This document shows positions 1-62,476 of a stretch of 64,000 nucleotides of DNA, in pieces. How positions within the stretch are numbered: the first letter of the stretch is position 1; every line of letters starts with the position of its first letter. Below the pieces are notes generated by a model. That model had not been told where the DNA came from. It was given only the letters and a program-made list of their open reading frames with translations, and did not search any database. The DNA lies in NCBI GenBank assembly GCA_963731735.1, contig CAVSWO010000002.1, forward strand, positions 334,106 through 398,105, given 5' to 3'. This DNA is from Candidatus Kerfeldbacteria bacterium (lineage in GTDB: Bacteria > Patescibacteriota > Patescibacteriia > SBBC01 > CAIJZX01). A program made the position numbers and the translations under genes.

Positions 1-234
1 ACAATTGACACCTGGCCTTGGATTCCAACTTTTGTCGAAATAGAAGGTTCATCAGAAAAATTGGTACACACGGTGGCGGGTAAATTAGATTTAAACTGGG
101 AAAGAGCTGTTCATGGAAGCGTCGAGACTGTCTACCAAAAACATTATGACTTTACTGAGGAAGAGATTGATGGGTGGTCTGAAATAACCTTTATCTCTCC
201 ACCAACCTGGTTACTTAATAAAAAAATATTATAA
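1..234 (+). CDS. 3' end of a gene truncated at the window edge; hypothetical protein (C-terminal 77 aa ...WSEITFISPPTWLLNKKIL)
   Basis: Frame 1 is open from position 1 to TAA at 232-234 with protein-like composition; no Met, so absent from ORF track. Confidence 0.4.
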   Translation, partial: TIDTWPWIPTFVEIEGSSEKLVHTVAGKLDLNWERAVHGSVETVYQKHYDFTEEEIDGWSEITFISPPTWLLNKKIL

Positions 235-253
235 AAAATTACTACCCTTTTTA

Positions 254-589
254 TTGGCCTTGTTACTTGTGGCGCCAATTACGGTTTACGCCCAAACCGC
301 CTCGACCTTTAGCATCGAGTCGGTCGGACAACAAATCGGGCTTGGCAGCGCGGACGCCAAAACCACCGCCATTAATATTATTCGCTGGGTCCTCGGAATA
401 CCGACTTTAGTGGCGGTCGTGATGATTATCTTCAGCGGATTTATTGCGGCCACTTCCGCCGACGCTGATCGAGCGGCCACCGCCAAGCGGGTGATTACCG
501 GCGCCGTGATTGGCTTAATTATTGTCTTGCTGGCCTGGGCGGTTGTGCTCTTTGTAGCCAACACCACCGCCAACGTTACCCAGCCCTAA
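254..589 (+). CDS. TrbC/VirB2-like pilin-family small membrane protein (paralog of the cluster at 57.6-60.2 kb); TTG start
   Basis: Signal peptide ...VYA|QTASTF, two hydrophobic helices separated by a short polar loop, C-terminal ...VANTTANVTQP almost identical to the 57639 and 58059 proteins. Confidence 0.5.
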   Translation: MALLLVAPITVYAQTASTFSIESVGQQIGLGSADAKTTAINIIRWVLGIPTLVAVVMIIFSGFIAATSADADRAATAKRVITGAVIGLIIVLLAWAVVLFVANTTANVTQP

Positions 590-1247: not shown

Positions 1248-2747
<1,500 letters not shown>

Positions 2748-4407: not shown

Positions 4408-4484
4408 GGGCGATTAGCTCAGGTGGTTAGAGCGCGTCACTGATAATGACGAGGTCCGAGGTTCGAATCCTCGATCGCCCACCA
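4408..4484 (+). tRNA. tRNA-Ile (anticodon GAT)
   Basis: Acceptor GGGCGAT/ATCGCCC, anticodon loop CTGATAA, T-loop GGTTCGAATCC, encoded CCA. Confidence 0.9.
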
Positions 4485-30464: not shown

Positions 30465-32144
30465 CTACTGCGCCACCCGGAAGACCTCTTCGACGCTGGT
30501 TAGGCCATCGAGGGCTTTCAGTAGTCCGTCTTGGGCCATCGTCACCATGCCTTGTTTTTGGGCAGCATCCCGCATCGCATATTCACTGACATTTCCGGCC
30601 AGGATAATTTTTTCCATGACATCGTCGATCAGCAAAACTTCAAAAATACCGATCCGGCCCTGATAGCCGAGGCCATGACACTGATCGCACCCCAAACCGC
30701 GTTTGAAATTGAGCGCCGCGTCCGCAGCCGGAGCAACGCCGGCCGAGGCCGGTATGTCGTTCAGCATTTTTTTGATACGGGCTTGCGTCGCTTCATCAAG
30801 CTCGGCTGGCGCCTGGCAATGGGTACAAAGCCGGCGAACGAGTCGTTGGGCCACGACCGCGTTGAGGGCCGGCGCCACTAAGAAGGGCTTAGCCCCCATC
30901 GCCAGAAATCGGGGGATAGCTCCAGCCGCATCGTTGGTGTGGACGGTTGAAAGTACCAGGTGTCCGGTGAGGGCGGCCTGGATCGCGGTTTCGGCGGTTT
31001 CCAAATCACGGATTTCTCCGACCATGATGATGTCCGGATCTTGGCGAAGAATTGAGCGCAGGCCTTTAGCAAAGGTATACCCCTTGCCCCAATCCACCTG
31101 GCTTTGATTAATGCCCTCGAGTTTATACTCGATCGGATCTTCGAGGGTGATAATTTTTGTATCGGGTTGATTGAGCTCATTCAAGACCGCATAGAGGGTG
31201 GTGGTTTTTCCGGAACCAGTCGGCCCAGTCACGACCACCATGCCGTTCGGTCGCTGAATTTCTTGCTTGAGAATTTCATAGGCTCGTCCGCGAAGTCCAA
31301 GATCAGAATAACGAATGCCGGCCGCCGAAGCTTTGAGGATACGCATCACGACGCTTTCGCCGAAGGCGGTCGGGAGGGTTGATACGCGCACGTCAATTTT
31401 GTCGTCTTCGAGATAAATTGTGATCCGGCCATCCTGCGGTACGCTGGTCAGATTAAGCTTCAATCCAGACAACAGTTTAATCCGGGAAATAATGCGCGGC
31501 CAAAGTTCATGTGCCAAGGTCGCCACGGTTGTTAAGACCCCGTCAATTCGGAAGCGAACTCTGACCGCGTCTTCTTCGGCTTCGATATGAATATCCGAAG
31601 AATTTGATTCGATCGCGCCGGCCAAAATAATCGTAAAGACATCCGTAATCGAGGCGCTTCGGATGTGTTTATCGAGGTGGCGAAAATCCTTAATTTGTGT
31701 TCGGTAGCGCTCTATTTCTTCTTGGGCCAGGGCAATGCCGCTGACGTGCTGCACAATCTTGGGCAGGCGTTGATAGTTTTTTAAGGCGGTTTCAAGGCTG
31801 TGCTGCGAAATCAGGTAGAGCTCCACGTTGGCATGATGCTTGTCGCCAAGCGTCTCCCTCAGCCCCGGCAAATCGGGTTGCGATGGATCAATCACGCCTA
31901 AGCGGATTTCATTTTGCGTGCGCAAAAAACAGACGGCTTGCAGGCGTCGCGCCTCGGCCTCGGGAATGGTCGCGATAGTTTCTGGGCCGATCGGAAACCC
32001 GACCAGGTTAATATACCCGAGTCCTGCCTGGGACGCTTGTGCTTGGGTTTCTTGTTCTTTTTCTTTGAGCGCGATTTGCGCCATTTTGTCCTGGAGTGCC
32101 GACTCAACGTTCGGCGGCGCCACGTGCGGTGTAGACGGTGTCAT
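30465..32144 (-). CDS. pilB: type II secretion / type IV pilus assembly ATPase (GspE/PilB family)
   Basis: VVTGPTGSGKTTTLYA Walker A, Asp and His boxes, tetracysteine CTHC...CDQC motif. Confidence 0.9.
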   Translation of the reverse strand: MTPSTPHVAPPNVESALQDKMAQIALKEKEQETQAQASQAGLGYINLVGFPIGPETIATIPEAEARRLQAVCFLRTQNEIRLGVIDPSQPDLPGLRETLGDKHHANVELYLISQHSLETALKNYQRLPKIVQHVSGIALAQEEIERYRTQIKDFRHLDKHIRSASITDVFTIILAGAIESNSSDIHIEAEEDAVRVRFRIDGVLTTVATLAHELWPRIISRIKLLSGLKLNLTSVPQDGRITIYLEDDKIDVRVSTLPTAFGESVVMRILKASAAGIRYSDLGLRGRAYEILKQEIQRPNGMVVVTGPTGSGKTTTLYAVLNELNQPDTKIITLEDPIEYKLEGINQSQVDWGKGYTFAKGLRSILRQDPDIIMVGEIRDLETAETAIQAALTGHLVLSTVHTNDAAGAIPRFLAMGAKPFLVAPALNAVVAQRLVRRLCTHCQAPAELDEATQARIKKMLNDIPASAGVAPAADAALNFKRGLGCDQCHGLGYQGRIGIFEVLLIDDVMEKIILAGNVSEYAMRDAAQKQGMVTMAQDGLLKALDGLTSVEEVFRVAQ

Positions 32145-45277: not shown

Positions 45278-45348
45278 ATCTTCGTCTTGATTTTGACTCA
45301 ATCAAAAAACAACGTCCATCCTAAGCATAGCATGTCTACGCGCGAGCG

Positions 45349-51180: not shown

Positions 51181-52447
51181 CGCAATTCTGCTCCTAATAT
51201 TCGGCTTGATCGGCAGCCGCCTGGCCTATGCGCCGGGGCTCGATTACTACCTGACCGGTGGGAGCCAAACATATTATTGGGGGCTGACGGCGCAGTGGTG
51301 GCTGACCGACATGGTCTCGATCGCTAGTTTTTTGTGGCTGACCTGGCTGGATCATCGAAGTCGGTCGTTGTATGAACGACATGCCACCAAAATCATCTGG
51401 GTCGCGAGTTTGCTTTTGATCGCGATCCCCTGGTTTCGTCACACGCTAATTCACCAACAGTCAGTTGAGGGATCATTGATGCATGACGGAACTCTCCAAA
51501 CTGAAGTCGCGGTGCGGGCACTGTGGCAAGGAAAAAATCCTTACCAACTCGATTATCAGGGCACCCTGTATGACTATGCCTTTAGTACCACCGCGCCAAT
51601 AGAGAATTCCGCGTTTACTCATTATGTCTATCCGCCAGCCTTAACCTACCTGGCTATGCCCGAGGTCTGGTTGAGCGACCTGAGTCATACTTGGCCGGAA
51701 CTGAATAGCCTGTATTTGGCGGCCCTGATTGTGACCGTCTTCCTCGTGACCCAAAGAATTTTGCCCGAACAAAAACGTTGGGTTATTCTCCTGGCCCTGG
51801 CCAATCCCCTGGTTACCTTGTATCCGCTTGCCGGCTACAATGATGTACTCGTGGTTAGCGCGCTGGCCCTGACCGCTCTCTTAGCGACGCGAAAACACTG
51901 GGGTTGGGCGGGGTGGTGGTATGCGCTGGCGCTGGGCCTGAAACAGGTCGCCTGGGTAACCGTACCGCTGTGGGCGATTGTCCAGTGGCGACGCTATCAG
52001 CAACACCCGGATGAGCGCCGGCAACTCCGCCGGGGTTGGTGGATCACACTCGGCGTCAGCGCCGCTCTCTATCTTCCATTTTTGATGTGGGACGCACGAT
52101 CATTGATTGATGACCTAATAATTTTCCCTTCCGGTAACCTGATTGGTTCCTATCCAATCGCGGGCAGCACCCTCTGGCAACTGAAAACTTTTTGGCAGGG
52201 AAGGACGCATGTTTGGGACGCCATCCCCTCCAGTTTAACAGCCGGTATCGCGCTGATCGCTTCGCTCGGATTTTTCGGCCGGCGCCTGTGGCGATCAAGC
52301 AGCGTGGTGCGCTGGTTCGGATTTTCAACCCTGACAATATTGTTTACCGGATTAACCCATCGATTTTTTCACGATAATTATTTATCGGTTTTGGTACTGA
52401 TGGGTATTTTGGCGTATGCGCTGGCTCTTCAACCTGAACAATCGTAG
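51167..52447 (+). CDS. polytopic membrane protein (paralog pair A, member 2)
   Basis: MHDGTLQTEVAVRALWQGKNPYQLDYQGT. Confidence 0.35.
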   Translation: MFRRDAILLLIFGLIGSRLAYAPGLDYYLTGGSQTYYWGLTAQWWLTDMVSIASFLWLTWLDHRSRSLYERHATKIIWVASLLLIAIPWFRHTLIHQQSVEGSLMHDGTLQTEVAVRALWQGKNPYQLDYQGTLYDYAFSTTAPIENSAFTHYVYPPALTYLAMPEVWLSDLSHTWPELNSLYLAALIVTVFLVTQRILPEQKRWVILLALANPLVTLYPLAGYNDVLVVSALALTALLATRKHWGWAGWWYALALGLKQVAWVTVPLWAIVQWRRYQQHPDERRQLRRGWWITLGVSAALYLPFLMWDARSLIDDLIIFPSGNLIGSYPIAGSTLWQLKTFWQGRTHVWDAIPSSLTAGIALIASLGFFGRRLWRSSSVVRWFGFSTLTILFTGLTHRFFHDNYLSVLVLMGILAYALALQPEQS

Positions 52448-54026
52448 ATTTTTCTGGCTGATCACCGGTCTGGCGATCCTCTTGTCGATCGGTCCGTGGT
52501 TGATCGGTTGGTCAATGCGCCCCGCCGGGTATGAATTTTTTGGCAACTCGGCTGTCAATCCCTGGGACCCGGCGGTCTACTATGGCTATATTGAACAAGG
52601 CCGGACGGGCGGAGTGTTCATGCACGATATCCTGACCAGTGAACCGTACGCGGCGACCCTATTTCAGCCCCTGTGGTGGTTACTAGGACGGCTGGCGGCC
52701 TGGGTACATTTGGCTACCCCCACCATCTTCGCCCTGGCCCGAACCGCGCTCGTCCCGCTGCTCGCGGGGGCGCTCTGGTGGGGCGCGCGGTGGGTATTTT
52801 CTGAACCGCGGCAGCAACGTTGGGCCTTCGGCCTGAGCCTGTTTTTGGGTGGCCTCGGGCCACTGGTGGCCCTGCTGGCCGGACGCGTTGAATTTACGCT
52901 CTCGCCTGACCTTTGGGTAACTGAAGCATTGCCGGTCTTGACGCTCATTAGCTCACCGCACTTTTTGATCGTTACAAGCGGCATTATTTTTACCCTGATT
53001 GGGATCGAACGGGCATATGCAAGCAATCAGTGGCGCTGGGTGGGCTGGGCCGGACTGGCCGCTTTGGTGACCCTAGCCATTCATCCCTTCCACGTGATTA
53101 CCTGGGTGCTGATCTGGGCGCTATTGACCACCTGGCGCGCATTCCAACGTGACCAGCATCCCTGGCGATACTTATTGATGTGGGTTAGCGTGTTAGCCAT
53201 TGCCAGCCCAGCCCTGGCCCTCTACGGTCTCCAGGCGATGTTTGACCCGCTCGTTATTGACCGGGCCATCCAAAACGTCAATTTGACCTGGCCACCCCTG
53301 CAAACATTCACGCTGCTAGGATTAGCGCTGCCTTTGATAGTGTTTGGGTGGACCCAGCGTCCGCGGAATGCGCGCTGGCAAAGCGTGCTGATTATGGCGG
53401 CTGCCTATGTAATTGCCATAGCGCTTCCAATATATTTTCAGCGCCGCCTAAGCCACGGGATGATGATCTTTTTTGCCTGGCTGGCGGTGCCGGGGGCAAT
53501 TCGGTTGGCTGATATTCTGAAACGCCAAGCCACCCCACTTCGTTGGGTTGGCGCCACCATCGCAATCTTTCTCGGACTATGGTCCTGGCTCTGGGTATCC
53601 GGGGTAAACATCAGTGCCTACGCCTACGATAAAACCATTGCGCCGGTACGGCAGTCTTACCTCTCACCTGAGTATCAGGCGCTATTGAGTACCATCAAAC
53701 AGTTCGACCATCGTTCGCAACCGCTGCTGGCGTCACTGACCGACAGCAAAGTTATTTCCGGCCTGACCGCACAAACCGTCTATGTTGCTCAAGCGGTTGA
53801 GACGGTTGACTATAGCCGGAAAGCACAACAGCTGGCGGACTTTTTTACGACTGCCAGTAAATCCACGCAACTCGCATTTGTTCAAAGGCACCATATTTGT
53901 CTGATACTCTATGGTCCACGTGAACAAACCTATGGTTCAACCTTTCAGCCCGCCACTTGGACAACCCTAACCCCGATTTGGCAGACGGATCAACGTACGC
54001 TTTATCGAACCGATCAATGTCAGTAA
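52416..54026 (+). CDS. polytopic membrane protein (paralog pair B, member 1)
   Basis: AVYYGYIEQGRTGG...FQPLWWLLG. Confidence 0.35.
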   Translation: MRWLFNLNNRRFFWLITGLAILLSIGPWLIGWSMRPAGYEFFGNSAVNPWDPAVYYGYIEQGRTGGVFMHDILTSEPYAATLFQPLWWLLGRLAAWVHLATPTIFALARTALVPLLAGALWWGARWVFSEPRQQRWAFGLSLFLGGLGPLVALLAGRVEFTLSPDLWVTEALPVLTLISSPHFLIVTSGIIFTLIGIERAYASNQWRWVGWAGLAALVTLAIHPFHVITWVLIWALLTTWRAFQRDQHPWRYLLMWVSVLAIASPALALYGLQAMFDPLVIDRAIQNVNLTWPPLQTFTLLGLALPLIVFGWTQRPRNARWQSVLIMAAAYVIAIALPIYFQRRLSHGMMIFFAWLAVPGAIRLADILKRQATPLRWVGATIAIFLGLWSWLWVSGVNISAYAYDKTIAPVRQSYLSPEYQALLSTIKQFDHRSQPLLASLTDSKVISGLTAQTVYVAQAVETVDYSRKAQQLADFFTTASKSTQLAFVQRHHICLILYGPREQTYGSTFQPATWTTLTPIWQTDQRTLYRTDQCQ

Positions 54027-55624
54027 CCAAAAAAATTTGGAGCATCATCGGTTTAGCGACCGGACTTTGGATACTTTCCGGCCTGCCGATATTGGTTGGC
54101 GCAATCACGACCGGGCCGAGTGAAGTTTTTGTCGGTCGCGTACCGGCGACCGCCGCCGATACTACCGCCTACTACTCAATGATTGAACAGGCCAAGCAGG
54201 GTCGGATTCTTTTTTCCAATCAGTTTACTAGCCTGACGCAGCACCCAACCATGTTTCACCCGCTGTGGTTGGTGACAGGATGGATCGCCTTTCTGCTGAA
54301 CCTCTCACCCGTTTGGGCTTACCAACTCGTACGTTGGCTGGCGGTAATCGGGTTTTTGGCTCTGCTATGGCGAATTCTTGAAGAAATTTTTTCCGAACGA
54401 CGGTGGCAATGGATTAGCCTACTGATGATTACCCTCAGCGGCGGGTTTGGCTGGCTGACCCAGGCGGATTTTCGGCGGTACGTTGATTTGAGCACCACGC
54501 CGGCAGACCTGTGGGTTGCCGAAAGCACCACCTTTCAATCCATCGGTCACTCGGCCCTCTTCATTGGATCACAAACACTGGTACTTTTTTTGATCTGGCA
54601 ATTGGCGAGCTGGTTACAAGGGCAAACCCGAGCCGGTTGGCGGTGGACGGGGCCGACCATCCTGCTGTTGGGCCTTATTCATCCGTATGATCTTGTCACC
54701 GTCGCGGCGGTAGCATTCGGATGGACCGGCTGGACGTATTTGCGGAGTGGTAAACCAAGCCGGCCGATTGGACAAGTCCTGCGCGCCGGACTCGGCTGGA
54801 TCGGGTGGGTGATCCCAGTTATCGTGTATTATCGATGGTGGGTCTTATCGGAACCGGCCATGGCTGGTTGGTTGGCACAGAACCTTGATTATACCAGCGC
54901 TCCCTACCTGACACTTCTTGGTTTCGGCCTGCTTGTTCCGCTAGCTACTTACGGCGCCATCCGATCATTGCGAGAGCGTCAAACGTTTCTGCATGCCTGT
55001 CTGGCTTGGGCGGTGATTGGCCTGCTGCTCATTTATGCGCCGCTATCGGTCCAGCGTCGCTTGCTCAACGGCCTGCAAATACCGTTCGCGCTGCTGGCAG
55101 CCTATGGGTTTTCCATGGCCTGGAAGCGTTGGAAAGAATGGCCACTGGTACGCAACGTGGCCGCCATTTGCTTAGCGACCGGACTGGTACTATCTCCGTT
55201 GGTGCTCCTGGGAGTTGATATTCGCTACGTTCTGCCCGGTGCGCGTCCCCCGTATCCGGTTCGCATTACTCGTGACACCTACGGCGCCTTTCAGTACATT
55301 CGCCAGCACAGTACTTTAACACAGGCTACCTGGGCTGAGTCCTGGGTAAGTAATAGTTTGACTGGTCTCGAGGGCCGAACTGTTGTTCAAGGCCACGCCC
55401 ATCAGACCATCGATTTTCAACAGCGTTTGCGGGACTGGCTAGTCTTTCGAACGCAGCTACTTAACCCGGATGAGCGCACCGCCATCCTGGATCGTCTAAA
55501 CGTCAAATTTTTACTCTGGCGCCCCCAAGATGCACTCCCAAACGGCTATCGTCCAAGCCAAGATCCGCGCTGGGTGACCCGCTATCAACGCGGTTCAGTT
55601 ACGCTGTTCGAGCGAATCAAGTGA
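54017..55624 (+). CDS. polytopic membrane protein (paralog pair B, member 2)
   Basis: TAYYSMIEQAKQGR...FHPLWLVTG. Confidence 0.35.
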   Translation: MSVTKKIWSIIGLATGLWILSGLPILVGAITTGPSEVFVGRVPATAADTTAYYSMIEQAKQGRILFSNQFTSLTQHPTMFHPLWLVTGWIAFLLNLSPVWAYQLVRWLAVIGFLALLWRILEEIFSERRWQWISLLMITLSGGFGWLTQADFRRYVDLSTTPADLWVAESTTFQSIGHSALFIGSQTLVLFLIWQLASWLQGQTRAGWRWTGPTILLLGLIHPYDLVTVAAVAFGWTGWTYLRSGKPSRPIGQVLRAGLGWIGWVIPVIVYYRWWVLSEPAMAGWLAQNLDYTSAPYLTLLGFGLLVPLATYGAIRSLRERQTFLHACLAWAVIGLLLIYAPLSVQRRLLNGLQIPFALLAAYGFSMAWKRWKEWPLVRNVAAICLATGLVLSPLVLLGVDIRYVLPGARPPYPVRITRDTYGAFQYIRQHSTLTQATWAESWVSNSLTGLEGRTVVQGHAHQTIDFQQRLRDWLVFRTQLLNPDERTAILDRLNVKFLLWRPQDALPNGYRPSQDPRWVTRYQRGSVTLFERIK

Positions 55625-57541
55625 AATGGCCGGCAATGTCTGCAGCACTTCGCGCTTGGTAAACTCGGGCGCGAACGTACGGAGCCGATTCAATTTAAGG
55701 TGGCCCACAAAGCGTACCAATGAAATTTTCAGACTGCCCGGGAGAGCGGTGTTAGGGATCGCTAGACGGTAAGTTGTTTGCCACTGTTCACCCGGTTTCC
55801 AGGTAAAACTTGGATTCCAGCCCTGACCGAGCAGCCGGGTGCTTTGCCATCGCGTCCGTCCGGACCGCTGCACGCTAAAGCGCAAAGCCAGCGGTTGATC
55901 AACTTGTTTCCCGGCTAGCCACTCTAACGGAACTTGATACTCCGTAAACCCATCGGGAACGGCAGTCTCAGCAACTGGCTGGACGGCCGTCGTGGCTGAC
56001 GTAACTGCTTCGGTAATTTTTGGAATCGCCCCTCCCGCCGACCCAAAAGATTGCGTGGGGACAAATGTATTTGATCCATTCCGGGTGTAAATTGCCACGC
56101 TATCTATCCAGGTTTGCAAATGCAACCCCTGGTCGGTCAAAAGCCGTGCGATTCGTTCCGACCCATCATATCCCTGGAAATCTGTTTCGCGATAGAGGAG
56201 TTGGTAGTGATAATATTGTTGCCAATCAATCACCGCCGCGTCAATATCGGTCGGCAAAACATACGGAGTGTCGGAGTATTGTCGCTTCCCAAGGTACACA
56301 TAATTAAGTGAATACAAGGTGGTTCGGTTGGCGAAGGTTGGCAGGTAATTAAAAGTCGTCAACACACGATCACTCGGTTGGATCATGGTTGCAACCTGCC
56401 GCAAAATTTTTGGGGCGGTAAACCCGCTATCTCCAACATTCGTCCACGGCCAGACCAGCGGTCCAAACGTAAAGTACGTATACAGCGGACCGACGATCGC
56501 CAAGGCCACTACCCCAACTCGCACCATCGATTGATCAAACAGCATCCAACCCGAATGTTGCCGGAGTCGCTTGATACCGTAAATCGTGGCCCAAGTTAAA
56601 AAGGGCAGGTACGGGATAACATAGTGCAGGCGTAAGATGGATTGCGCGTCCGCGCCAATGAGCATTAATTGCAGGTAGAGCAAGCTGACGGGTACCAAAT
56701 AGCGCCAGGCCGCCAAGGGCAACAACCCAAATCCGATCAAAAATCCGAAGGTCGTGACCCAGTTATTGGGGTGCAACAGGTGCTGCAAAAATACCAGCGG
56801 CCGCCGAAAAGGTGAGAGCAGGATCTCCGGCAGCGAGTGCCCCATCCAGCCATAAAAAGCCAAATATTTGTAGGCTCCCAAGGGCTGGGCCTGGCTAATG
56901 ACATATTGGGCCAGCCAGAAGTAAGCGACAGCCAGGATTGCCGGGACCGCCCACCAACGCCAGGTACGCTTTTGGATCAGGGCCAAACCGGCCCAACCTG
57001 CCAAGAGCAGCGGCATATCTTCCCGCACCAACAGAATGGCGATCAGGCTGGCAATCCACCATCCCCAGCGATGCATTTCGTAAGCCACAATGCTCCACAG
57101 TAAAAGTGGCAAAGCAAAGGCCAGGCCATGAAACTCGTACAGCGCGACATTATAAAATAATGGGTGAGCCAGAAAAACACTCGCCGCGAGCAAACCCACC
57201 CGGGTTGAGAAATGCCGTCGAAATAGGAGCATCACCGGAATGGCCGCACTGACCAACACCAAGGTTTGCGTCCATAAGATCAACAGGCTGCTCGACCACA
57301 GGCGATACAATCCCGCAAGCGGAAGTAGCCACAATTCTAGATGATCTCCTAAGTACGTTGGATCATGAATGGAATTTGCAAAGCCGTGGCCGTGGCCAAG
57401 TGACCACAAGGTTTGTTGATAGATGCCTAAATCCAGGCCATTATAACCAAAGGCCTGAAACTTCCACCACTGCAGGGCGCCAAGGACGATTGCCGTGAGT
57501 GTCATCAGGCCGCTGAGCCACCACCAATACTTCCGTTGCAT
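55595..57541 (-). CDS. DUF2079-family integral membrane protein
   Basis: FGYNGLDLGIYQQTLWSLGHGHG motif; ATG at 57541 with AGGATGG SD. Confidence 0.5.
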   Translation of the reverse strand: MQRKYWWWLSGLMTLTAIVLGALQWWKFQAFGYNGLDLGIYQQTLWSLGHGHGFANSIHDPTYLGDHLELWLLPLAGLYRLWSSSLLILWTQTLVLVSAAIPVMLLFRRHFSTRVGLLAASVFLAHPLFYNVALYEFHGLAFALPLLLWSIVAYEMHRWGWWIASLIAILLVREDMPLLLAGWAGLALIQKRTWRWWAVPAILAVAYFWLAQYVISQAQPLGAYKYLAFYGWMGHSLPEILLSPFRRPLVFLQHLLHPNNWVTTFGFLIGFGLLPLAAWRYLVPVSLLYLQLMLIGADAQSILRLHYVIPYLPFLTWATIYGIKRLRQHSGWMLFDQSMVRVGVVALAIVGPLYTYFTFGPLVWPWTNVGDSGFTAPKILRQVATMIQPSDRVLTTFNYLPTFANRTTLYSLNYVYLGKRQYSDTPYVLPTDIDAAVIDWQQYYHYQLLYRETDFQGYDGSERIARLLTDQGLHLQTWIDSVAIYTRNGSNTFVPTQSFGSAGGAIPKITEAVTSATTAVQPVAETAVPDGFTEYQVPLEWLAGKQVDQPLALRFSVQRSGRTRWQSTRLLGQGWNPSFTWKPGEQWQTTYRLAIPNTALPGSLKISLVRFVGHLKLNRLRTFAPEFTKREVLQTLPAISLDSLEQRN

Positions 57542-57584
57542 ATGCAACCATCCTAGCGAATTTCTCAATTCTGCGCTAATAACC

Positions 57585-57610
57585 AAACCCGCCGCAGAGG
57601 CGGCGGGTTT
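57585..57610 (-). terminator. rho-independent terminator after pilin gene 57639..58013 (CCCGCCGC-AGAG-GCGGCGGG + U tract)
   Basis: perfect 8-bp GC stem flanked by A/T runs. Confidence 0.55.
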
Positions 57611-57638
57611 GAGAAATCGTAATTCAGGAAATCGTCGA

Positions 57639-58013
57639 CTAGGTCTGCGTGACGTTCGCCGTGGTGTTGGCCACGAAGATAACGACCGCCCAAGCCAGTA
57701 AGACGATAATCAAACCGATAACTGCAGCTGAAATAATCTTCTTGGCCTTATCAACTTTTTCTTCATTCCCACCAGCTGTCAGCCAGGTAAAGCCACCGAT
57801 GATGACCATAATGACCGCAATCAGGGCCAGTAAGCCAAGCACGAGCTGCAGAATGTTAATCACGGTTGTCTTCAGGTCGGCATCACCAAGACCGATTTGC
57901 GATCCAACAGATTCAACACTGAAGGTCGAAGCCGTCTGAGCATGAACCAACGCCGGCATCGCCATCGTGGCGATTGAACCCGCGAGTAACGCGTATTTCG
58001 TAAAGCGCTTCAT
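57639..58013 (-). CDS. TrbC/VirB2-like pilin-family protein
   Basis: Signal peptide ...ALVHA|QTASTF, helix-loop(GGNEEKVDKAKK)-helix, C-terminal VANTTANVTQT. Confidence 0.5.
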   Translation of the reverse strand: MKRFTKYALLAGSIATMAMPALVHAQTASTFSVESVGSQIGLGDADLKTTVINILQLVLGLLALIAVIMVIIGGFTWLTAGGNEEKVDKAKKIISAAVIGLIIVLLAWAVVIFVANTTANVTQT

Positions 58014-58058
58014 TGTATTTTCACCCCCTTTCGTGAACTGAAGATAGAAAAACGTAAT

Positions 58059-58442
58059 TTACGGAGTTGTCTGCGTGACGTTCGCCGTGGTGTTGGCCAC
58101 GAAGATGACGATTGCCCAGGCGAGCAAAATCACGATCAAGCCGATAACGGCCGCCGAGATAATTCGCTTCGCTTGTTCGACTCGGTCTTCATTTCCACCA
58201 GCCGTCAACCAGACAAATCCGGCGTAAATGATGAACACGACCGCAATCAGGGTCATGAAACCCAGAATCCACTGGATAATGTTAATCACGGTTGTCTTCA
58301 GGTCGGCATTGCCAAGACCGATCTGCTCACCAACAGATTCAACGCTAAAGGTTGAAGCTGTTTGTGCATGGACAGCCAGCGGAGCGGCCGCCATCGCAAA
58401 CACGCCCATTCCCATGGCGAGTGCTGTTAAACGTTTCTTCAT
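58059..58442 (-). CDS. TrbC/VirB2-like pilin-family protein (tandem paralog)
   Basis: Same architecture; 37-nt identical stretch with neighbouring gene at C-terminal coding end. Confidence 0.5.
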   Translation of the reverse strand: MKKRLTALAMGMGVFAMAAAPLAVHAQTASTFSVESVGEQIGLGNADLKTTVINIIQWILGFMTLIAVVFIIYAGFVWLTAGGNEDRVEQAKRIISAAVIGLIVILLAWAIVIFVANTTANVTQTTP

Positions 58443-58529
58443 ACGAAAGTTTCCTTTCCGAAGTGTTATTTGTAAAAATATTTTCCTTCTTTTTTCTCCT
58501 CAATCTCCTCGAATGAACAACCTGCTTGG

Positions 58530-58557
58530 ATTATACAAGAATCCCGTCAAAAGTCAA
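58530..58557 (-). promoter_or_regulatory. strong sigma70-like promoter TTGACT-N16-TGnTATAAT driving the tandem pilin genes
   Basis: revcomp AGTCAA at 58552-58557, ATTATA at 58530-58535 with extended -10 TG. Confidence 0.5.
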
Positions 58558-58606
58558 CGCGAGTTATCCTCACGTCGATTAATTTTGCCTAAAAACAGCC
58601 GAAAAC

Positions 58607-58954
58607 CTACCGTTGAAGCAGCCCCTCAAGGACAAATCGGATGATTCCCCAGCTAAGCAGGATGACTACCACGCCAATCGCGGCCCAGGCTAAGGTCTCT
58701 TTTGCCTGTTTGACCCGTTGGCTATTTCCCCCCGAAGTTAACATCATGACCCCGCCCCAGATAAACATCAGCGTCGCCAAAATAGCAATCACGCCCAAAA
58801 TATACCGAACTACCTGGCCAATTAAACAGGTGGCGGTATTACAGGCGATTGGATTAGTGATTTGGACGGCAGCCTGGACCGCGGGCGCGGCGGCCAGGAT
58901 CGTTATCGCGAGTAGCCCACCCGCCCATAAACTTCGAGACTTATGCATGGTCAT
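58607..58954 (-). CDS. TrbC/VirB2-like pilin-family protein (divergent paralog)
   Basis: MTMHKSRSLWAGGLLAITILAAAPAVQA signal, ...MMLTSGGNSQRVKQAKE... loop. Confidence 0.45.
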   Translation of the reverse strand: MTMHKSRSLWAGGLLAITILAAAPAVQAAVQITNPIACNTATCLIGQVVRYILGVIAILATLMFIWGGVMMLTSGGNSQRVKQAKETLAWAAIGVVVILLSWGIIRFVLEGLLQR

Positions 58955-58967
58955 AGTATACCACGAC

Positions 58968-60224
58968 TCAGTTTTTTGGTTGCTGGGAAAAATCGGTGAA
59001 GAGCGATTCATCACATTTGGTCGTGCACAGGTTGATTCCAAAACACGGTGAGGGTACGAATTGTGCCTCGGTTGGTAAAACACTTGAGCACCAGTACGGA
59101 CTGGCTTGTTCAAAACACGTTTTACTATTGTCCGGGTTAATACAAGAACCGCAAACTTGGCTGGCCTCGGGCTGTTGAAAGCAGGAACGGGAACCGCTGT
59201 AGAACTGGCTGTTTGGCAGTGAACCACACGATCGTTCAGACACGGAGTCCGCACAATAGAGCGGCTGGGTATTACCACTAGCATCGGTGCCGCGTACCAC
59301 GCAGCACCCCAGTGTGGTTCGGGACTTCTTGGCCGCTAGGTTGATATCAAACTGCGGCAGCAGCTTCTCAATCTTGTTAATGCGTTGGACGGTTGTGCTG
59401 GGCGAAGAACAGCTTTGACTGGAGTTCGATAAAATTAAATTTTCGGTCCGGGTATCAACCATGCCGGTGGCCGGCAGCAAGTTGGCAAGTTGAAAACGAC
59501 GGACACACGAGGCGGTGTTGTCACCATAACAACCCTTCCCGTCCAGACTGGATAAACACTCGCAGCCCTTAGCATCCAAAGCCTCTTGCAGCCGGGCGAT
59601 TGGTCCGGGCTGCGTGCCCGGATCGGCGCAACGAATTTCGATGGCGCTGTCGGTGTCAGCCGTGCAGCCATTATCCCACGTGGCGTGACAGTCAGTGCGT
59701 GTTTCCGTGCCGCCGGTGCCGCTGAAGGGTCGTTCCGAACTCGTCCCCCCGAAGACGGTCGCGATTGGACCGGAGAACGGATTTATGGCACGCGCGGTTG
59801 TGCCGGTAATCGCGGCCACCGCAAAGTTAATGGTGATGTAGGCGGTCATCGAAATGATGACCCCCACAATCGCGCCAATCACGATCCGTTTCCCATCTTC
59901 AATTTTTGAAGGCCGGCCGGCCGCGGTAATCCACTGCACTCCGCCCCAGATAATAAACAGCACGGCCAGAATGATAACAATGCTCTGACCCCATTGAGCT
60001 AGCACCACAAATTGCTGAAAAAATGAATCAATGGTACAGGGATTGGCGAATTGATCGACCATAACCGTTTTACCATCGCTCCCGATACTTGGCACACTCA
60101 CAATTTCTTGGTCGCACGGAATCAGCAGACCGGTGGCTTCGCTTTGCGCATGCGCCGCCGGTACCCAAACATTCAGCGCCAGGCTGACCGCCAAGACTAT
60201 CGCACCAACCAAGAAGGTCTTCAT
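58968..60224 (-). CDS. pilin-like N-terminal domain fused to a peptidoglycan-binding (PG_binding_1-like) and ~20-Cys C-terminal extension
   Basis: N-term signal + two helices with AAGRPSKIEDGKR loop; IARLQEALDAKGCECLSSLDGKGCYGDNTASCVRRFQLANLLPATGMVDTRTENLI; many Cys thereafter. Confidence 0.45.
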   Translation of the reverse strand: MKTFLVGAIVLAVSLALNVWVPAAHAQSEATGLLIPCDQEIVSVPSIGSDGKTVMVDQFANPCTIDSFFQQFVVLAQWGQSIVIILAVLFIIWGGVQWITAAGRPSKIEDGKRIVIGAIVGVIISMTAYITINFAVAAITGTTARAINPFSGPIATVFGGTSSERPFSGTGGTETRTDCHATWDNGCTADTDSAIEIRCADPGTQPGPIARLQEALDAKGCECLSSLDGKGCYGDNTASCVRRFQLANLLPATGMVDTRTENLILSNSSQSCSSPSTTVQRINKIEKLLPQFDINLAAKKSRTTLGCCVVRGTDASGNTQPLYCADSVSERSCGSLPNSQFYSGSRSCFQQPEASQVCGSCINPDNSKTCFEQASPYWCSSVLPTEAQFVPSPCFGINLCTTKCDESLFTDFSQQPKN

Positions 60225-61594
60225 AGACTGGCGGTTAACTGCTCACCGGCCAAACGCAGCGCATCTTCGAGCGTGGCCTTACCTTCCAGGACACTGGTCG
60301 AAAGATCACGGAGGTATCCCTCGGCCTTCTGGCCGCCGTGGCCATGGTACCAAGTTTTGGCCGTCAGGAGCTGAGCCGCAAAGGTCCCGAGCTCGGGATC
60401 ATCCTTCTGGGTGCTTAAAATACTCCGCAGAGCTGAAAGTTTCCCGGTCATTTGGAGATACACCGGGACAGTTGATTCATAGGTCACAAAATTCAGCAAG
60501 TTCCAAGCCTGGGTGCTGCGGCCCTGTAATTGACTCGACTTTGAAACCATTAGCATGTCGTAACGAGCCGCATCAATCACCCGGGCTTGGTTCGTCAGCC
60601 CGTCCCGATCACCATCAGTGCTCAAATGAAGCATCGGCGAGACCGCCCAGTTGACCGCACTCTTTTTTATGGTGGCCAGGTCAGCCAGTGTTCCAAAATA
60701 GTAGGCCAGCTTCCCGGCCAAAAAATCTTCGCGAGCGTTTGGTTGTTGCGCGTTCCAACTATACGCAACTTTTTTCGGATTCGCGAAACTCAACCAAAAA
60801 TCCATGGCCGTTTGCGCCGCTTCGGTCATATGGACCGAATCTTGATTCGGTTGAATGGCCGGCCATCCATTTTGTAACATTAACAGCGCCATTAAGTCGG
60901 CGGCGTAAGGGACATTGTCGACGCTCCCGAGCGCCACGCCGGCCTGGACAATGGACTGCTGATCATCGGCCACCGTCAATCCGTTGACGGTTAGCTGTTG
61001 CAGCAGTTCACCCCAAGTCTTAGCCGGCTCGAAGACTTTCGCGTTGTTCAATAAATCTTTGTTGCTGTAGAGGACAATCGTGTCCATTGATAAGGGCAAG
61101 CCCCAGACCTGTCCATCAATCACCGCGTCTTGCGCCACAGCGTCTACAAAAGTGTTTTTCAGACTCGTCACCGATGGGGCGGGCAGGCTTTGCTGCACAA
61201 TTTCGGTGCCATTCCGAAAGAGTCCGGTCCCGGTTTTGACAATCGGAACGCCGAGCTGCGCCGGCATCGGCGTCGCAAATTCCGTCATCTGGCCGATCCA
61301 GGTTTGTGGGACAAAGAAAAGGTCTGGGCCATTGCCTTGGGCCCAGGCACTGACTAATCGATCATAATATCCTTCGGCCGGCACGACTTGGTAGGTGACG
61401 GTGGCGTATGGGCGTTGGATTGCATATCGTTTGGCCAGGGCGGCAAAAGCCAATCGTTCATCGGCGGTTCCCCAGACGGTTAGCGTGACCGGACTGACGG
61501 TGGTCGGTTTGCTTTTTAAAACACCGCTGACCAGCAGCACAATCGGAATGGCCGGTACCAGGATAATGGCGACAATGATGAGAATGCGGCGCAT
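60221..61594 (-). CDS. ABC transporter substrate-binding protein (family 1, sugar-type) with N-terminal membrane anchor
   Basis: Length and composition typical of SBP_bac_1; no permease/ATPase nearby. Confidence 0.7.
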   Translation of the reverse strand: MRRILIIVAIILVPAIPIVLLVSGVLKSKPTTVSPVTLTVWGTADERLAFAALAKRYAIQRPYATVTYQVVPAEGYYDRLVSAWAQGNGPDLFFVPQTWIGQMTEFATPMPAQLGVPIVKTGTGLFRNGTEIVQQSLPAPSVTSLKNTFVDAVAQDAVIDGQVWGLPLSMDTIVLYSNKDLLNNAKVFEPAKTWGELLQQLTVNGLTVADDQQSIVQAGVALGSVDNVPYAADLMALLMLQNGWPAIQPNQDSVHMTEAAQTAMDFWLSFANPKKVAYSWNAQQPNAREDFLAGKLAYYFGTLADLATIKKSAVNWAVSPMLHLSTDGDRDGLTNQARVIDAARYDMLMVSKSSQLQGRSTQAWNLLNFVTYESTVPVYLQMTGKLSALRSILSTQKDDPELGTFAAQLLTAKTWYHGHGGQKAEGYLRDLSTSVLEGKATLEDALRLAGEQLTASL

Positions 61595-61597
61595 AGG

Positions 61598-62476
61598 TTA
61601 TCGATCGAGATAGTCTTTAATGTCTTGTTTGAGCTCTGGATGTTTCAGCGCAAAATGAATATTGGCCTTGAGATATTCACGTTTACTGCCGCAATCGAAA
61701 TACCGCCCTTTGATAATTCGGGCATAGACGGCTTTGCGTCGGGCCATATTGTTGACGGCGTCGGATAACTGTAATTCACCGCCGGTTCCGGCCGGCAGCC
61801 GTTCAATCCAATCGAAAATGTCCGGGGTTAAGACGTAGCGTCCGGTGACCGCAAACAGGGAAGGCGTTTTGGCCGGATCAGGCTTTTCAATCACACCGGC
61901 GACCGGGAAAGCCTGCTGCACAGTTTTTCCTTTCGGGCGCATCATGCCGTAATGCCGGACCATTTCACGCGCCACCTCCATCGTTCCGATCACGCTGGCG
62001 CCGGTCCGATTATAAGTTTCGATAAGCTGTCCGATGGCCGGTTGTCGGGATTCAATAATGTCATCACCAAATGAAAAGGCAAACGGCTCATTCCCGACTA
62101 TCTCTTTCGCCATATACAGCGCGTTGGCGTTCCCCAAAATTTTATTTTGGCGGACGTAAACGAATTTTGCGAGTTTTGAAATGCGATGAACCTCTTTGAG
62201 CTGTTTGAGTTTCTTTGATTCGCGTAACGAAAGCTCCAGTTCGGCCGAATAGTCAAAATGATCTTCAATTGCCCGCTTATTCCGTCCGGTGACGAAGATG
62301 ATCTCTTCTATCCCGGCCTTGGCCATCTCTTCGACAATGTATTGAATCACCGGCTTGTCGACGATTGGCAGCATTTCCTTCGGTTGGGCAATCGTGGCCG
62401 GCAAAAAACGGGTACCAAATCCTGCCACCGGGATTACTGCTTTGCGAATTTTTTGACGTTTTGTTTTTTTCGCCAT
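61598..62476 (-). CDS. galU: UTP--glucose-1-phosphate uridylyltransferase
   Basis: VIPVAGFGTRFLPATIAQPKEMLPIVDKPVIQY. Confidence 0.85.
   Translation of the reverse strand: MAKKTKRQKIRKAVIPVAGFGTRFLPATIAQPKEMLPIVDKPVIQYIVEEMAKAGIEEIIFVTGRNKRAIEDHFDYSAELELSLRESKKLKQLKEVHRISKLAKFVYVRQNKILGNANALYMAKEIVGNEPFAFSFGDDIIESRQPAIGQLIETYNRTGASVIGTMEVAREMVRHYGMMRPKGKTVQQAFPVAGVIEKPDPAKTPSLFAVTGRYVLTPDIFDWIERLPAGTGGELQLSDAVNNMARRKAVYARIIKGRYFDCGSKREYLKANIHFALKHPELKQDIKDYLDR

What the first reader, a model, noticed from the sequence alone, without database searches (positions are those of the whole stretch)
57639..60224. Cluster of four TrbC/VirB2-like pilin paralogs with their own strong promoter and terminator
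The four proteins share a signal peptide, two hydrophobic helices split by a short charged loop (..AGGNEEKVDKAKK..), and a conserved C-terminal tail (VANTTANVTQT). That is VirB2/TrbC (T4SS pilin) topology rather than type IV prepilin. The two tandem genes carry a 37-nt identical stretch. A near-consensus promoter (TTGACT-N16-TGnTATAAT) and a GC-hairpin terminator flank them. No VirB4/VirD4/VirB6 is in the window, so this may be a paralogous surface-filament or adhesin family typical of episymbiotic CPR rather than a conjugation system. It may be functionally linked to the solitary PilB/GspE-type ATPase at 30465..32144.
Basis: partly seen in the sequence, partly recalled or inferred. Interest (0 to 1): 0.55.

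Follow-up and report, generated by a model that had tools for sequence, protein, structure and literature searches.

The report
VirB2-like pilin gene array, Kerfeldbacteria
This is a real cluster of small secreted membrane-hairpin proteins of the "type IV secretion pilin" family already known to form gene arrays in ultrasmall CPR/Patescibacteria bacteria, here with a fifth copy elsewhere in the window, one copy fused to a cell-wall-binding domain, and no secretion machinery nearby.

Summary
The four minus-strand genes exist at the stated coordinates. All four score above Pfam's cut-off for PF18895 (T4SS_pilin). C also nearly reaches the TrbC/VirB2 cut-off. A fifth paralogue (E, ~218-589, + strand) lies upstream of the 16S gene. 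The window is the origin-proximal chromosome of a Kerfeldbacteria-type (class ABY1) Patescibacterium.

Several details need correcting:
- The near-consensus promoter lies inside the cluster, between C and B, and serves only B and A. It has no TGn element.
- D overlaps the stop codon of an upstream solute-binding-protein gene (ATGA).
- Only A, B and E carry the ANTTANVTQ tail.
- The identical stretch is 38 nt, not 37.
- The inter-helix loop is the most conserved part, not the most variable.

D is a pilin hairpin fused to a PG_binding_1 domain and a 20-cysteine ectodomain. The order NTP-transferase, SBP, fusion, C, A/B, DUF2079 recurs in about 44 related genomes, together with the internal promoter. 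No VirB4-like gene lies within 10 kb of any of 80 related loci, although three array-carrying relatives are published as VirB4-positive.

VirB2-like pilin arrays in Patescibacteria are already published (Wang 2023; Quiñonero-Coronel 2025). This is a new member of a known kind. The link to PilB is unsupported.

The parts
57639..58013 (-). Gene A: 124-aa bare pilin-family protein. Layout: signal peptide, ~25-aa ectodomain segment, helix, loop TAGGNEEKVDKAKK, helix, tail ANTTANVTQT.
   Evidence: PF18895 49.4 bits. AF2 helices 45-79 and 84-120 at pLDDT ~90. 451 homologues, 64-83% identical among those listed. Strong SD (AGGGGGTGA).
58059..58442 (-). Gene B: 127-aa paralogue of A (71% aa identity). 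First gene after the internal promoter.
   Evidence: PF18895 44.2 bits. Alignment. dS 0.95 and dN/dS 0.235 against A. Adjacent pairs with one copy clearly closer to A occur in other genomes (HY975_04295/04300, AAB402_02785/02790).
58607..58954 (-). Gene C: 115-aa pilin-family protein with two Cys in its N-terminal ectodomain segment and no NVT tail. About 31% identical to A.
   Evidence: PF18895 54.7 bits and TrbC PF04956 26.3 bits (cut-off 27.9). 66 orthologues, many precomputed as PF04956-positive.
58968..60224 (-). Gene D: 418-aa fusion. Layout: signal peptide, Cys-bridged beta-hairpin, pilin helical hairpin (~65-140), disordered linker, PG_binding_1 (~205-265), Cys-rich beta domain (~300-418). 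22 Cys in total.
   Evidence: PF18895 33.4 bits and PG_binding_1 28.2 bits. AF2 model has pLDDT ~90 over residues 200-410. Foldseek matches the PG-binding domains of CtpB and SleB (prob 1.0, rmsd 1.2 A) and nothing for the Cys-rich part. 21 homologues with 20 invariant Cys. Cys positions.
58530..58557 (-). Internal sigma-70-type promoter TTGACT-N16-TATAAT in the C-B gap. It drives B and A.
   Evidence: 11 of 12 matches. A TTGACA-N16-18-TATAAT match of at least 11 of 12 is found at the same position in 34 of the 49 listed related loci with a scorable gap, and a perfect 12 of 12 match in 21 of them.
57586..57611 (-). GC-rich hairpin after A: an intrinsic terminator or attenuator before the DUF2079 gene.
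   Evidence: -26.7 kcal/mol, z = -3.46. The tail GGUUAUUAG is only moderately U-rich.
57643..57680 (-). 38-nt stretch identical to 58069-58106. It encodes IFVANTTANVTQT at the 3' ends of A and B.
   Evidence: There are no synonymous differences here, against dS ~0.95 in the rest of the gene. A has N116 like B, where most A-like orthologues have R or K. This points to local gene conversion.
60221..61594 (-). Membrane-anchored solute-binding protein (SBP_bac_1/8) with no permease partner. Its stop codon overlaps D's start (ATGA).
   Evidence: Pfam. N-terminal TM segment. Immediately upstream of the fusion gene in 41 of 41 related array loci, commonly with a 4-nt overlap.
61598..62476 (-). Sugar-1-phosphate nucleotidyltransferase (NTP_transferase), the conserved gene before the SBP gene.
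   Evidence: Pfam. Found before the SBP gene in 39 of 39 related loci.
55595..57586 (-). DUF2079 polytopic membrane protein immediately downstream of A. The likely true start is the ATG ~45 nt inside the ORF. It heads a block of GT87-, ALG3- and unknown-family membrane proteins at 48272-55624.
   Evidence: Pfam. The DUF2079 cluster is present in 50 related loci and directly follows the array.
218..589 (+). Gene E: fifth pilin-family paralogue, upstream of the 16S rRNA gene. It has a divergent loop (IAATSADADRAATAKR) and the same ANTTANVTQ tail. No ATG, GTG or TTG precedes its signal-peptide n-region, so the start may be ATA at 218 or TTG at 254.
   Evidence: hmmsearch E = 1.4e-35. Translation. 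PF18895 36.4 bits. Orthologues with the same loop occur in L084 (also next to a 16S gene) and L081.

Best explanation
This is the chromosomal, lineage-conserved pilin array of a Kerfeldbacteria-type (ABY1) Patescibacterium. It encodes Sec-exported VirB2-like helical-hairpin proteins of family PF18895.

Shown:
- All five copies belong to PF18895.
- Each has a cleavable signal peptide and two membrane helices, with both termini predicted outside and a short basic loop inside.
- A and B are old duplicates under purifying selection. They are transcribed from their own near-consensus, evolutionarily conserved promoter and have strong ribosome-binding sites.
- C and D are read from the upstream operon, and D's start overlaps the stop codon of an anchored solute-binding protein gene.
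- D carries a peptidoglycan-binding domain and a disulfide-rich domain on the outer side of the hairpin.

Inferred:
- A and B are the abundant structural subunits.
- C is a minor subunit.
- D is a low-copy subunit that uses the same hairpin to join the assembly and present a wall-binding or adhesive ectodomain. The roughly 2000-aa pilin-headed giants in sister genomes would do the same.
- The assembly is the pilus or envelope-spanning fibre of the Patescibacterial VirB4-type T4SS, which is encoded elsewhere in the genome.
- It serves contact with, or exchange with, a host cell rather than conjugation.
For: - Family: PF18895 above cut-off for A-E. TrbC/VirB2 at 26.3 bits for C, and PF04956 recorded for many C orthologues. 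Related multi-hairpin proteins reach 51 bits on TrbC. The NCBIfam model for the Mycoplasma ICE 'pilin-like conjugal transfer protein' scores E = 1e-9 to 1e-7.
- Fold and topology: AF2 gives a two-helix hairpin, and hydropathy agrees.
- Specific packing rather than a mere anchor: G74, W77, T79, G82, N83, E84, A90, K91 and W108 are 100% conserved in 50 orthologues.
- High expression of A and B: the promoter is conserved at 11-12 of 12 matches in most related loci.
- Heteromeric use of the subunit types: the order fusion, C, A/B is fixed in about 44 loci. A natural C-type + A-type fusion protein (P0216) exists.
- T4SS present in the lineage: three genomes that carry this array in my scan (L040, L057, L060/L073) are listed as VirB4-positive, as are 8 of 11 Kerfeldbacteria seen in Table S1 of PMC12102498.
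- Precedent: VirB2-like pilin arrays of 2-11 genes occur in 383 Patescibacteria assemblies. Only 1135 of 1948 pilin-bearing assemblies have the pilin near virB4. The array is essential in Southlakia epibionticum.
- Not mobile: GC is even, neighbours are housekeeping genes, and no relaxase, integrase or T4CP is present.
Against: - No T4SS gene lies in the 64-kb window. No large Walker-A ORF with a VirB4-like character lies within +-10 kb of any of 80 related loci. The seven large Walker-A ORFs found were not VirB4-like: four are ATP-synthase subunits by motif, and three, including a 609-aa one in L081, were not profiled.
- Single A-like copies sit among housekeeping genes such as DnaB, a P-type ATPase and SecY.
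- VirB4 could not be checked in the source genome itself.
- The only invariable neighbours are sugar-related: NTP-transferase, SBP and predicted membrane glycosyltransferase-like proteins.
- The fold search cannot tell a pilin hairpin from any other helical hairpin. No T4SS pilin appeared in the top 50 and all E-values were above 0.1.
- There is no sequence match to any solved structure.
- No Patescibacterial T4SS pilus has been observed; the 2025 review speaks only of a 'potential to elaborate conjugative pili'.
- Within-array identity (71% for A/B) and cross-species conservation (64-83%) are much higher than the published picture of highly variable arrays (mean 25%, maximum 54%). Antigenic or host-range variation is therefore not the driver here.
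Confidence: 0.55

Rival explanations
1. A T4SS-independent envelope module. The hairpin is a generic oligomerising membrane module of ABY1 bacteria that anchors or organises extracellular domains such as the PG-binding domain and giant Ig-like proteins. It works with the co-translated SBP, the NTP-transferase and the adjacent predicted membrane glycosyltransferase-like proteins in sugar capture or surface-glycan/glycoprotein assembly. The invariant outer NVT/TT tail would be a glycosylation site.
For: - SBP lies upstream in 41 of 41 loci, NTP-transferase in 39 of 39, and DUF2079/GT87 downstream in most.
- A PMT-family gene lies two genes upstream of the SBP gene in L002 and L004.
- No VirB4-like ORF was found near any of 80 loci.
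- The tail (R/K/N)TT(A/S)NVT is 98-100% conserved.
- Single polypeptides with 8-17 tandem hairpins and no internal signal peptides exist (P0208, P0220). These look like polytopic membrane proteins rather than fibre subunits.
- Giant fusions sit in housekeeping contexts.
Against: - The family is homologous to TrbC/VirB2 pilins. In Saccharibacteria its members lie inside an essential T4SS locus.
- VirB4 is present in three array-bearing relatives.
- Neighbourhood with glycosyltransferases may reflect nothing more than an envelope-gene region.
- No glycosylation evidence exists.
Confidence: 0.3
2. Subunits of a filament powered by the PilB/GspE ATPase at 30465-32144.
For: A T2SSE-family ATPase (416 bits) is in the window without PilC, PilM or prepilin genes around it.
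Against: - A-E have Sec/AxA leaders, not class III leaders, and no G[FM]T[LI]xE motif occurs in any window ORF.
- PilB is 26 kb away, between a DHH-family gene and a small P-loop (AAA_33-like) gene.
- It is never part of the conserved array neighbourhood.
- The hairpin fold differs from the type IV pilin alpha1 + beta-sheet fold.
Confidence: 0.03
3. A remnant or cargo of a conjugative element (ICE or plasmid) whose pilins serve DNA transfer.
For: Homology to conjugative pilin families and to the Mycoplasma ICE pilin-like protein model.
Against: - No relaxase, T4CP, VirB4 or integrase is in the window.
- GC is even.
- The locus has the same chromosomal neighbours in about 44 species.
- There is no similarity to any of 72,556 plasmids.
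- Relaxases are rare in Patescibacteria.
Confidence: 0.03

Closest known systems
VirB2-like pilin arrays of Patescibacteria (Southlakia epibionticum ML1 T4SS locus SEML1_0006-0019; TM7x 'Sec-secreted array'; 441 arrays in 383 assemblies, Quiñonero-Coronel et al. 2025, PMC12102498; Wang et al. 2023, PMC10633639)
   Same: Same Pfam family (PF18895/PF04956). Tandem paralogous small Sec-secreted hairpin proteins on the chromosome of a monoderm epibiont lineage, near the replication origin, with no relaxase.
   Different: - Not inside or near a T4SS locus.
- A and B are 71% identical, against a published maximum of 54%, and are strongly conserved across species.
- Gene order is fixed, with a pilin/PG-binding/Cys-rich fusion first.
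- The array is tightly coupled to an SBP gene and flanked by membrane glycosyltransferase-like genes.
- The bare subunits have their own conserved promoter.
- None of these features is mentioned in the 2025 paper.
TrbC/VirB2/TraA conjugative pilins of diderm T4SSs (Pfam PF04956; Agrobacterium VirB2, RP4 TrbC, F TraA)
   Same: Signal peptide, two hydrophobic helices, a short basic loop, termini on the outer face. C scores 26.3 bits on PF04956.
   Different: Below the family cut-off. The host is a monoderm. There are no adjacent virB genes. An extra conserved N-terminal ectodomain segment and an NVT tail are present. Some members carry large C-terminal ectodomains. Cyclisation and processing are unknown.
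Mbov_0395 family pilin-like conjugal transfer protein of Mycoplasma ICEs (NCBIfam NF045849)
   Same: Best NCBIfam match for A, B and C (E = 1e-9 to 1e-7, nearly full model length). Also from wall-less or monoderm MPF-FATA-type systems.
   Different: Scores of 31-38 bits are below the 40-bit cut-off. That family is encoded within mobile ICEs.
Amplified trwL (virB2) copies of the Bartonella Trw T4SS
   Same: Several tandem VirB2 paralogues in a host-contact system that does not transfer DNA.
   Different: In Bartonella the copies lie inside the T4SS operon and are thought to diversify surface variants. Here the copies are conserved and functionally differentiated: bare, Cys-bearing, or fused.

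Membership tests
Pfam PF18895 T4SS_pilin | Whole-protein HMM score at or above the gathering score (26.6 bits) | tested here: met
   A 49.4, B 44.2, C 54.7, D 33.4 bits; E 36.4 bits.
Pfam PF04956 TrbC/VirB2 pilin | HMM score at or above the gathering score (27.9 bits) | tested here: not met
   C scores 26.3 bits (E = 8.5e-6), just below cut-off. A, B and D give no hit. Many C orthologues carry a precomputed PF04956 hit. Related multi-hairpin protein P0208 scores 51.2 bits.
VirB2-type T4SS pilin (functional class) | Sec signal peptide followed by two hydrophobic helices joined by a short charged loop | tested here: met
   AxA leaders and alignment. AF2 helices 45-79 and 84-120. Hydropathy.
VirB2-type T4SS pilin (functional class) | Encoded with or near VirB4/VirB6/VirB3-type machinery | tested here: not met
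   None in the 64-kb window. No VirB4-like large Walker-A ORF within +-10 kb of 80 related loci. Neighbours are housekeeping or sugar-related genes.
VirB2-type T4SS pilin (functional class) | A VirB4-type T4SS is present in the same genome | not testable with these tools
   The rest of the 822,872-bp source contig could not be fetched. Indirect evidence: three array-bearing relatives and 8 of 11 Kerfeldbacteria are VirB4-positive in Table S1 of PMC12102498.
VirB2-type T4SS pilin (functional class) | Polymerises into an extracellular pilus | not testable with these tools
   No multimer modelling or experiment was available. The Foldseek search of the monomer was non-specific.
Patescibacterial VirB2 array (as defined in PMC12102498: 2-11 pilin genes in tandem or separated by one non-pilin gene) | At least two PF18895/PF04956 genes in tandem | tested here: met
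   Four consecutive genes with gaps of 45, 164 and 13 nt. Definition taken.
Type IV (T4P/T2SS) prepilin | Class III leader with G|(F/M)-T-L-x-E cleaved by PilD, followed by a single N-terminal hydrophobic helix | tested here: not met
   No such motif in A-E or in any window ORF. The proteins form a two-helix hairpin.
NCBIfam NF045849 Mbov_0395 pilin-like conjugal transfer protein | Score at or above 40 bits | tested here: not met
   A 34.6, B 31.1, C 37.9 bits.
Pfam PF01471 PG_binding_1 (domain of D) | HMM score at or above 23 bits, and the three-helix PG-binding fold | tested here: met
   28.2 bits at residues 209-262. Foldseek matches the CtpB, SleB and endolysin PG-binding domains with prob 0.97-1.0 and rmsd 1.1-3.2 A, although E-values are only 0.07-0.4.
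Conjugative element (ICE or plasmid) | Relaxase, coupling protein, VirB4, integrase or element borders | tested here: not met
   None in the window. Chromosomal synteny is conserved. No plasmid match.

The most novel reading that the evidence does not exclude
In ABY1 Patescibacteria the VirB2-like hairpin has been freed from the T4SS. It has become a general self-assembling envelope module that is produced in bulk (A/B) and also used as the N-terminal 'plug-in' for surface cargo: the PG-binding/Cys-rich protein D, ~2000-aa Ig-domain giants, and multi-hairpin polyproteins. The module works together with a dedicated anchored sugar-binding protein and adjacent membrane glycosyltransferase-like proteins that may glycosylate its invariant outer NVT tail. 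That would be a new kind of cell-surface display or host-contact organelle.
Probability: 0.2. Interest if true: 0.6.

Novelty: new member of a known kind. Interest (0 to 1): 0.35.

Why it matters
The role of the T4SS and its pilin arrays is one of the open questions in the biology of epibiotic ultrasmall bacteria. They are essential in the one genetically tractable species, but their function is unknown. This locus adds nothing new at the level of 'what family is it'. It does show a strongly conserved, differentiated version of the array:
- abundant bare subunits under a dedicated promoter;
- a wall-binding fusion subunit;
- obligatory coupling to a solute-binding protein gene and sugar-related genes;
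- sister loci where the same pilin head carries giant adhesin-like proteins.

If these proteins join one fibre, they name concrete candidates for the host-contact end of the Patescibacterial T4SS pilus. If they do not, the 'pilin' label on a family with about 78,000 sequence clusters needs qualifying.

Full report
WHAT IS THERE

Between 57639 and 60224 the minus strand carries four consecutive genes:
- A, 57639-58013, 124 aa.
- B, 58059-58442, 127 aa.
- C, 58607-58954, 115 aa. The 225-aa ORF in the mechanical list over-extends into D.
- D, 58968-60224, 418 aa.

All four score above Pfam's curated cut-off (26.6 bits) for PF18895 'Type IV secretion system pilin': 49.4, 44.2, 54.7 and 33.4 bits. 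C also reaches 26.3 bits on TrbC/VirB2 PF04956, whose cut-off is 27.9. D has an additional PG_binding_1 domain at 28.2 bits. The best NCBIfam match for A, B and C is the Mycoplasma ICE 'Mbov_0395 pilin-like conjugal transfer protein'. It is significant (E = 1e-9 to 1e-7) but below that model's cut-off.

A profile made from the family finds a fifth copy in the window. E lies at about 218-589 on the plus strand, just upstream of the 16S rRNA gene, and scores 36.4 bits on PF18895.

CONTEXT

The window is chromosomal and close to the replication origin. It holds yidC, dnaA and dnaN at 34-38.5 kb, a 16S gene at 1249-2746, tRNA synthetases and RuvABC. GC content is even throughout.

Exact protein look-ups place the genes on a single 822,872-bp NCBI/ENA contig. 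The closest named relatives are Candidatus Kerfeldbacteria, GTDB class ABY1. I scanned 56 window ORFs against Pfam and none is a T4SS component.

Topology. Each protein has a leader ending in AxA and two long hydrophobic helices. AlphaFold models A as helices 45-79 and 84-120 with pLDDT around 90.

Tail. The ANTTANVTQT tail is shared by A, B and E only.

Identical stretch. It is 38 nt long, 57643-57680 = 58069-58106. The rest of A and B has dS 0.95 and dN/dS 0.235. In addition, A carries N116 as B does, whereas most A-like orthologues have R or K at that position. The identical stretch is therefore best read as local gene conversion between two old duplicates.

Promoter. TTGACT-N16-TATAAT at 58557..58530 is real. 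It lies in the 164-nt gap between C and B and has no TGn element. The same position in related genomes carries TTGACA-N16-18-TATAAT with at least 11 of 12 matches in 34 of the 49 listed loci with a scorable gap, and a perfect 12 of 12 match in 21 of them. My estimate of the chance expectation for one such match is about 1e-3 per locus, so the promoter is conserved and dedicated to the bare A/B-type genes. A and B also have the strongest Shine-Dalgarno sequences.

Operon structure. D's ATG overlaps the stop codon of the upstream solute-binding-protein gene (ATGA), and C follows D after 13 nt. D and C are therefore read from the upstream operon: CCA-adding enzyme, NTP-transferase, SBP, D, C.

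Terminator. The hairpin after A (57586-57611) folds at -26.7 kcal/mol with z = -3.5.

Loop variation. The suggested test, whether variation concentrates in the loop, came out the opposite way. In 50 A/B orthologues the loop and its flanks (W77, T79, G82, N83, E84, A90, K91) are 100% conserved. The tail motif TT(A/S)NVT is 98-100% conserved. Variation sits in the signal peptide and the last residues. Only E has a different loop, and that loop is itself conserved in E's orthologues.

GENE D

The 21 homologues, all from the same lineage, keep 20 invariant cysteines. D itself has 22. The AlphaFold model (pLDDT around 90 over residues 200-410) shows, in order:
1. a signal peptide;
2. a small Cys-bridged beta-hairpin;
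3. the pilin hairpin;
4. a disordered linker;
5. a three-helix PG-binding domain, which superposes on those of CtpB, SleB and phage endolysins (prob 0.97-1.0, rmsd 1.1-3.2 A);
6. a Cys-rich beta domain with no PDB match.

With the hairpin topology the whole 280-residue C-terminal part is extracellular. This fits its disulfide content.

COMPARATIVE PICTURE

A degenerate-pattern scan of one genome per GTDB species found 246 relatives, and I examined the best 80 loci. About 44 of them repeat the same ordered array. First comes a pilin-fusion protein of 210-660 aa, which carries PG_binding_1 in the nearer relatives and unknown ectodomains in the others. Then comes a C-type gene, then one or two A/B-type genes.

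The neighbours are fixed:
- SBP immediately upstream in 41 of 41 loci, often with the same 4-nt overlap.
- NTP-transferase before the SBP gene in 39 of 39 loci.
- DUF2079 and further polytopic GT87-, ALG3- and unknown-family membrane proteins downstream.

The same genomes hold other loci of the family:
- Single A-like genes among DnaB, SecY and a P-type ATPase.
- The E-type gene next to 16S.
- Genes of 1,900-2,750 aa whose first ~130 residues are an A-like pilin unit, followed by Big_5 and unknown domains, in a housekeeping neighbourhood (signal peptidase, HisRS, S21, FtsA).

None of the 80 loci has a VirB4-like large Walker-A ORF within 10 kb.

An exhaustive profile search shows how large the family is. 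It finds 77,621 50%-identity clusters at E <= 1e-3. They include many of the giants, a natural C-type + A-type fusion (P0216), and single polypeptides with 8-17 tandem hairpins and no internal leaders.

WHAT IS KNOWN

Wang et al. 2023 described essential predicted pilin genes inside the T4SS locus of Southlakia epibionticum.

Quiñonero-Coronel et al. 2025 used PF18895 and PF04956 across 3,035 Patescibacteria genomes and reported the following:
- VirB2-like pilins in 1,948 VirB4-positive assemblies, near virB4 in only 1,135 of them.
- 441 arrays of 2-11 pilin genes, with mean within-array identity of 25% and a maximum of 54%.
- Few relaxases.

In that paper's Table S1, three genomes in which I found this array (GW2011_GWA2_48_9, CG08_land_8_20_14_0_20_40_16 and CG_4_10_14_0_8_um_filter_42_10) are marked VirB4-positive. 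So are 8 of the 11 Kerfeldbacteria entries I could read. The paper does not mention pilin fusions, the SBP or the glycosyltransferase neighbourhood. I found nothing on them elsewhere in the held library.

INTERPRETATION

Family membership is secure. My preferred mechanism, at about 0.55, runs as follows:
- A and B are abundant structural subunits.
- C is a minor subunit.
- D is a low-copy subunit that uses the same hairpin to join the assembly and display a wall-binding, disulfide-rich head. The giants elsewhere in sister genomes would do the same.
- The assembly belongs to the VirB4-type T4SS encoded elsewhere and serves host contact rather than conjugation.

Three points favour this model:
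- the near-invariance of the helix and loop residues, which implies specific packing;
- the fixed subunit order and the natural C+A fusion;
- the published presence of VirB4 in array-bearing relatives.

Four points weigh against it:
- the complete lack of T4SS linkage in 80 loci;
- the invariable sugar-related neighbours;
- the multi-hairpin polyproteins;
- the fact that no such pilus has ever been seen.

The main rival, at about 0.3, is a T4SS-independent envelope module tied to the SBP and the membrane glycosyltransferase-like genes, possibly with a glycosylated NVT tail. A PilB-driven filament and a conjugative-element remnant are each around 0.03. The leaders are not class III, PilB is never a neighbour, and no transfer genes or element borders are present.

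VERDICT

The VirB2-like assignment is right. The PilB link is not supported.

The finding is a new member of a published kind, the Patescibacterial VirB2-like pilin array. Its lineage-specific traits are worth recording:
- a conserved dedicated promoter for the bare subunits;
- a pilin/PG-binding fusion;
- obligate coupling to an SBP gene;
- pilin-headed giant proteins in sister genomes.

Interest is moderate to low (0.35).

Noticed in passing
window 188-589 (+): A fifth PF18895 paralogue (E) lies just upstream of the 16S gene. No ATG, GTG or TTG precedes its KKYYKK signal-peptide n-region, so it may use an ATA start at 218. Its inter-helix loop (IAATSADADRAATAKR) differs from A-D but is conserved in orthologues in L084 (also next to 16S) and L081.
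   Followed up: yes
L036 9576-15743; L038 9947-16894; L039 9863-15526; L043; L044; L050; L077; L083 3434-11692: Sister genomes encode proteins of 1,887-2,752 aa whose N-terminal ~130 residues are an A-like pilin unit with the same QTATTFSVES...WLTAGGNE motifs. Big_5 and unknown domains follow. The neighbourhood is housekeeping: signal peptidase, HisRS, S21, YqeY, FtsA. Many more such proteins appear in the representative library (P0265, P0279, P0283 and others).
   Followed up: partly
P0208 (820 aa), P0220 (1,775 aa), P0216 (218 aa): Single polypeptides carry 8 to 17 tandem pilin hairpins with no internal Met or signal peptides. P0208 scores PF18895 223 bits and TrbC 51 bits. P0216 is a two-unit fusion of a C-type and an A-type hairpin. 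It is unclear whether these are processed polyproteins or polytopic membrane proteins.
   Followed up: partly
window 48272-57586 and 60221-62476: The array sits between an NTP-transferase plus an orphan, membrane-anchored SBP on one side and six polytopic membrane proteins on the other (DUF2079, GT87 x2 including an ALG3-like one, three unknown). In L002 and L004 a PMT-family gene lies two genes upstream of the SBP gene. Together with the invariant outer NVT/TT tail of A/B, this suggests pilin glycosylation. The idea is untested.
   Followed up: partly
window 57643-57680 and 58069-58106; also 559-586: In this genome A, B and E all end in FVANTTANVTQ. Most A-like orthologues in other species have R or K in place of the first N. 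This points to concerted evolution (gene conversion) of the 3' ends among dispersed paralogues 57 kb apart.
   Followed up: partly
A, B and C match the NCBIfam model for a pilin-like protein of Mycoplasma ICEs (NF045849, E down to 1e-9). The 2025 paper states that Gram-positive (MPF-FATA) T4SSs lack VirB2 homologues. The Mollicutes family may be the missing link for the origin of the Patescibacterial pilins.
   Followed up: no
L007, L008, L010, L013, L020, L026 and others: Many public MAG records holding this Kerfeldbacteria-type locus are titled 'uncultured Gammaproteobacteria bacterium', and one is titled 'Pirellulales bacterium'. These are probably mislabelled or mis-binned records.
   Followed up: no
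window 30465-32144: The PilB/GspE-type ATPase (T2SSE 416 bits, with an MshEN domain) stands alone between a DHH-family gene and a small P-loop (AAA_33-like) gene. No PilC or PilM gene and no class III-leader pilin is found anywhere in the window.
   Followed up: partly
window 1249-2746: The 16S rRNA gene is not followed by a 23S gene. The next features are small ORFs and a tRNA at 4408. The rRNA genes are therefore unlinked, as is common in CPR genomes. A TTGACA-N16-TATAGT promoter at 643-670 precedes it.
   Followed up: no
window 43835-46827 and 5166-7777: There are two tandem starch/glycogen-synthase paralogues (Glyco_transf_5) and two tandem Wzy_C (O-antigen-ligase-like) membrane proteins. 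The window is unusually rich in envelope-glycan genes.
   Followed up: no
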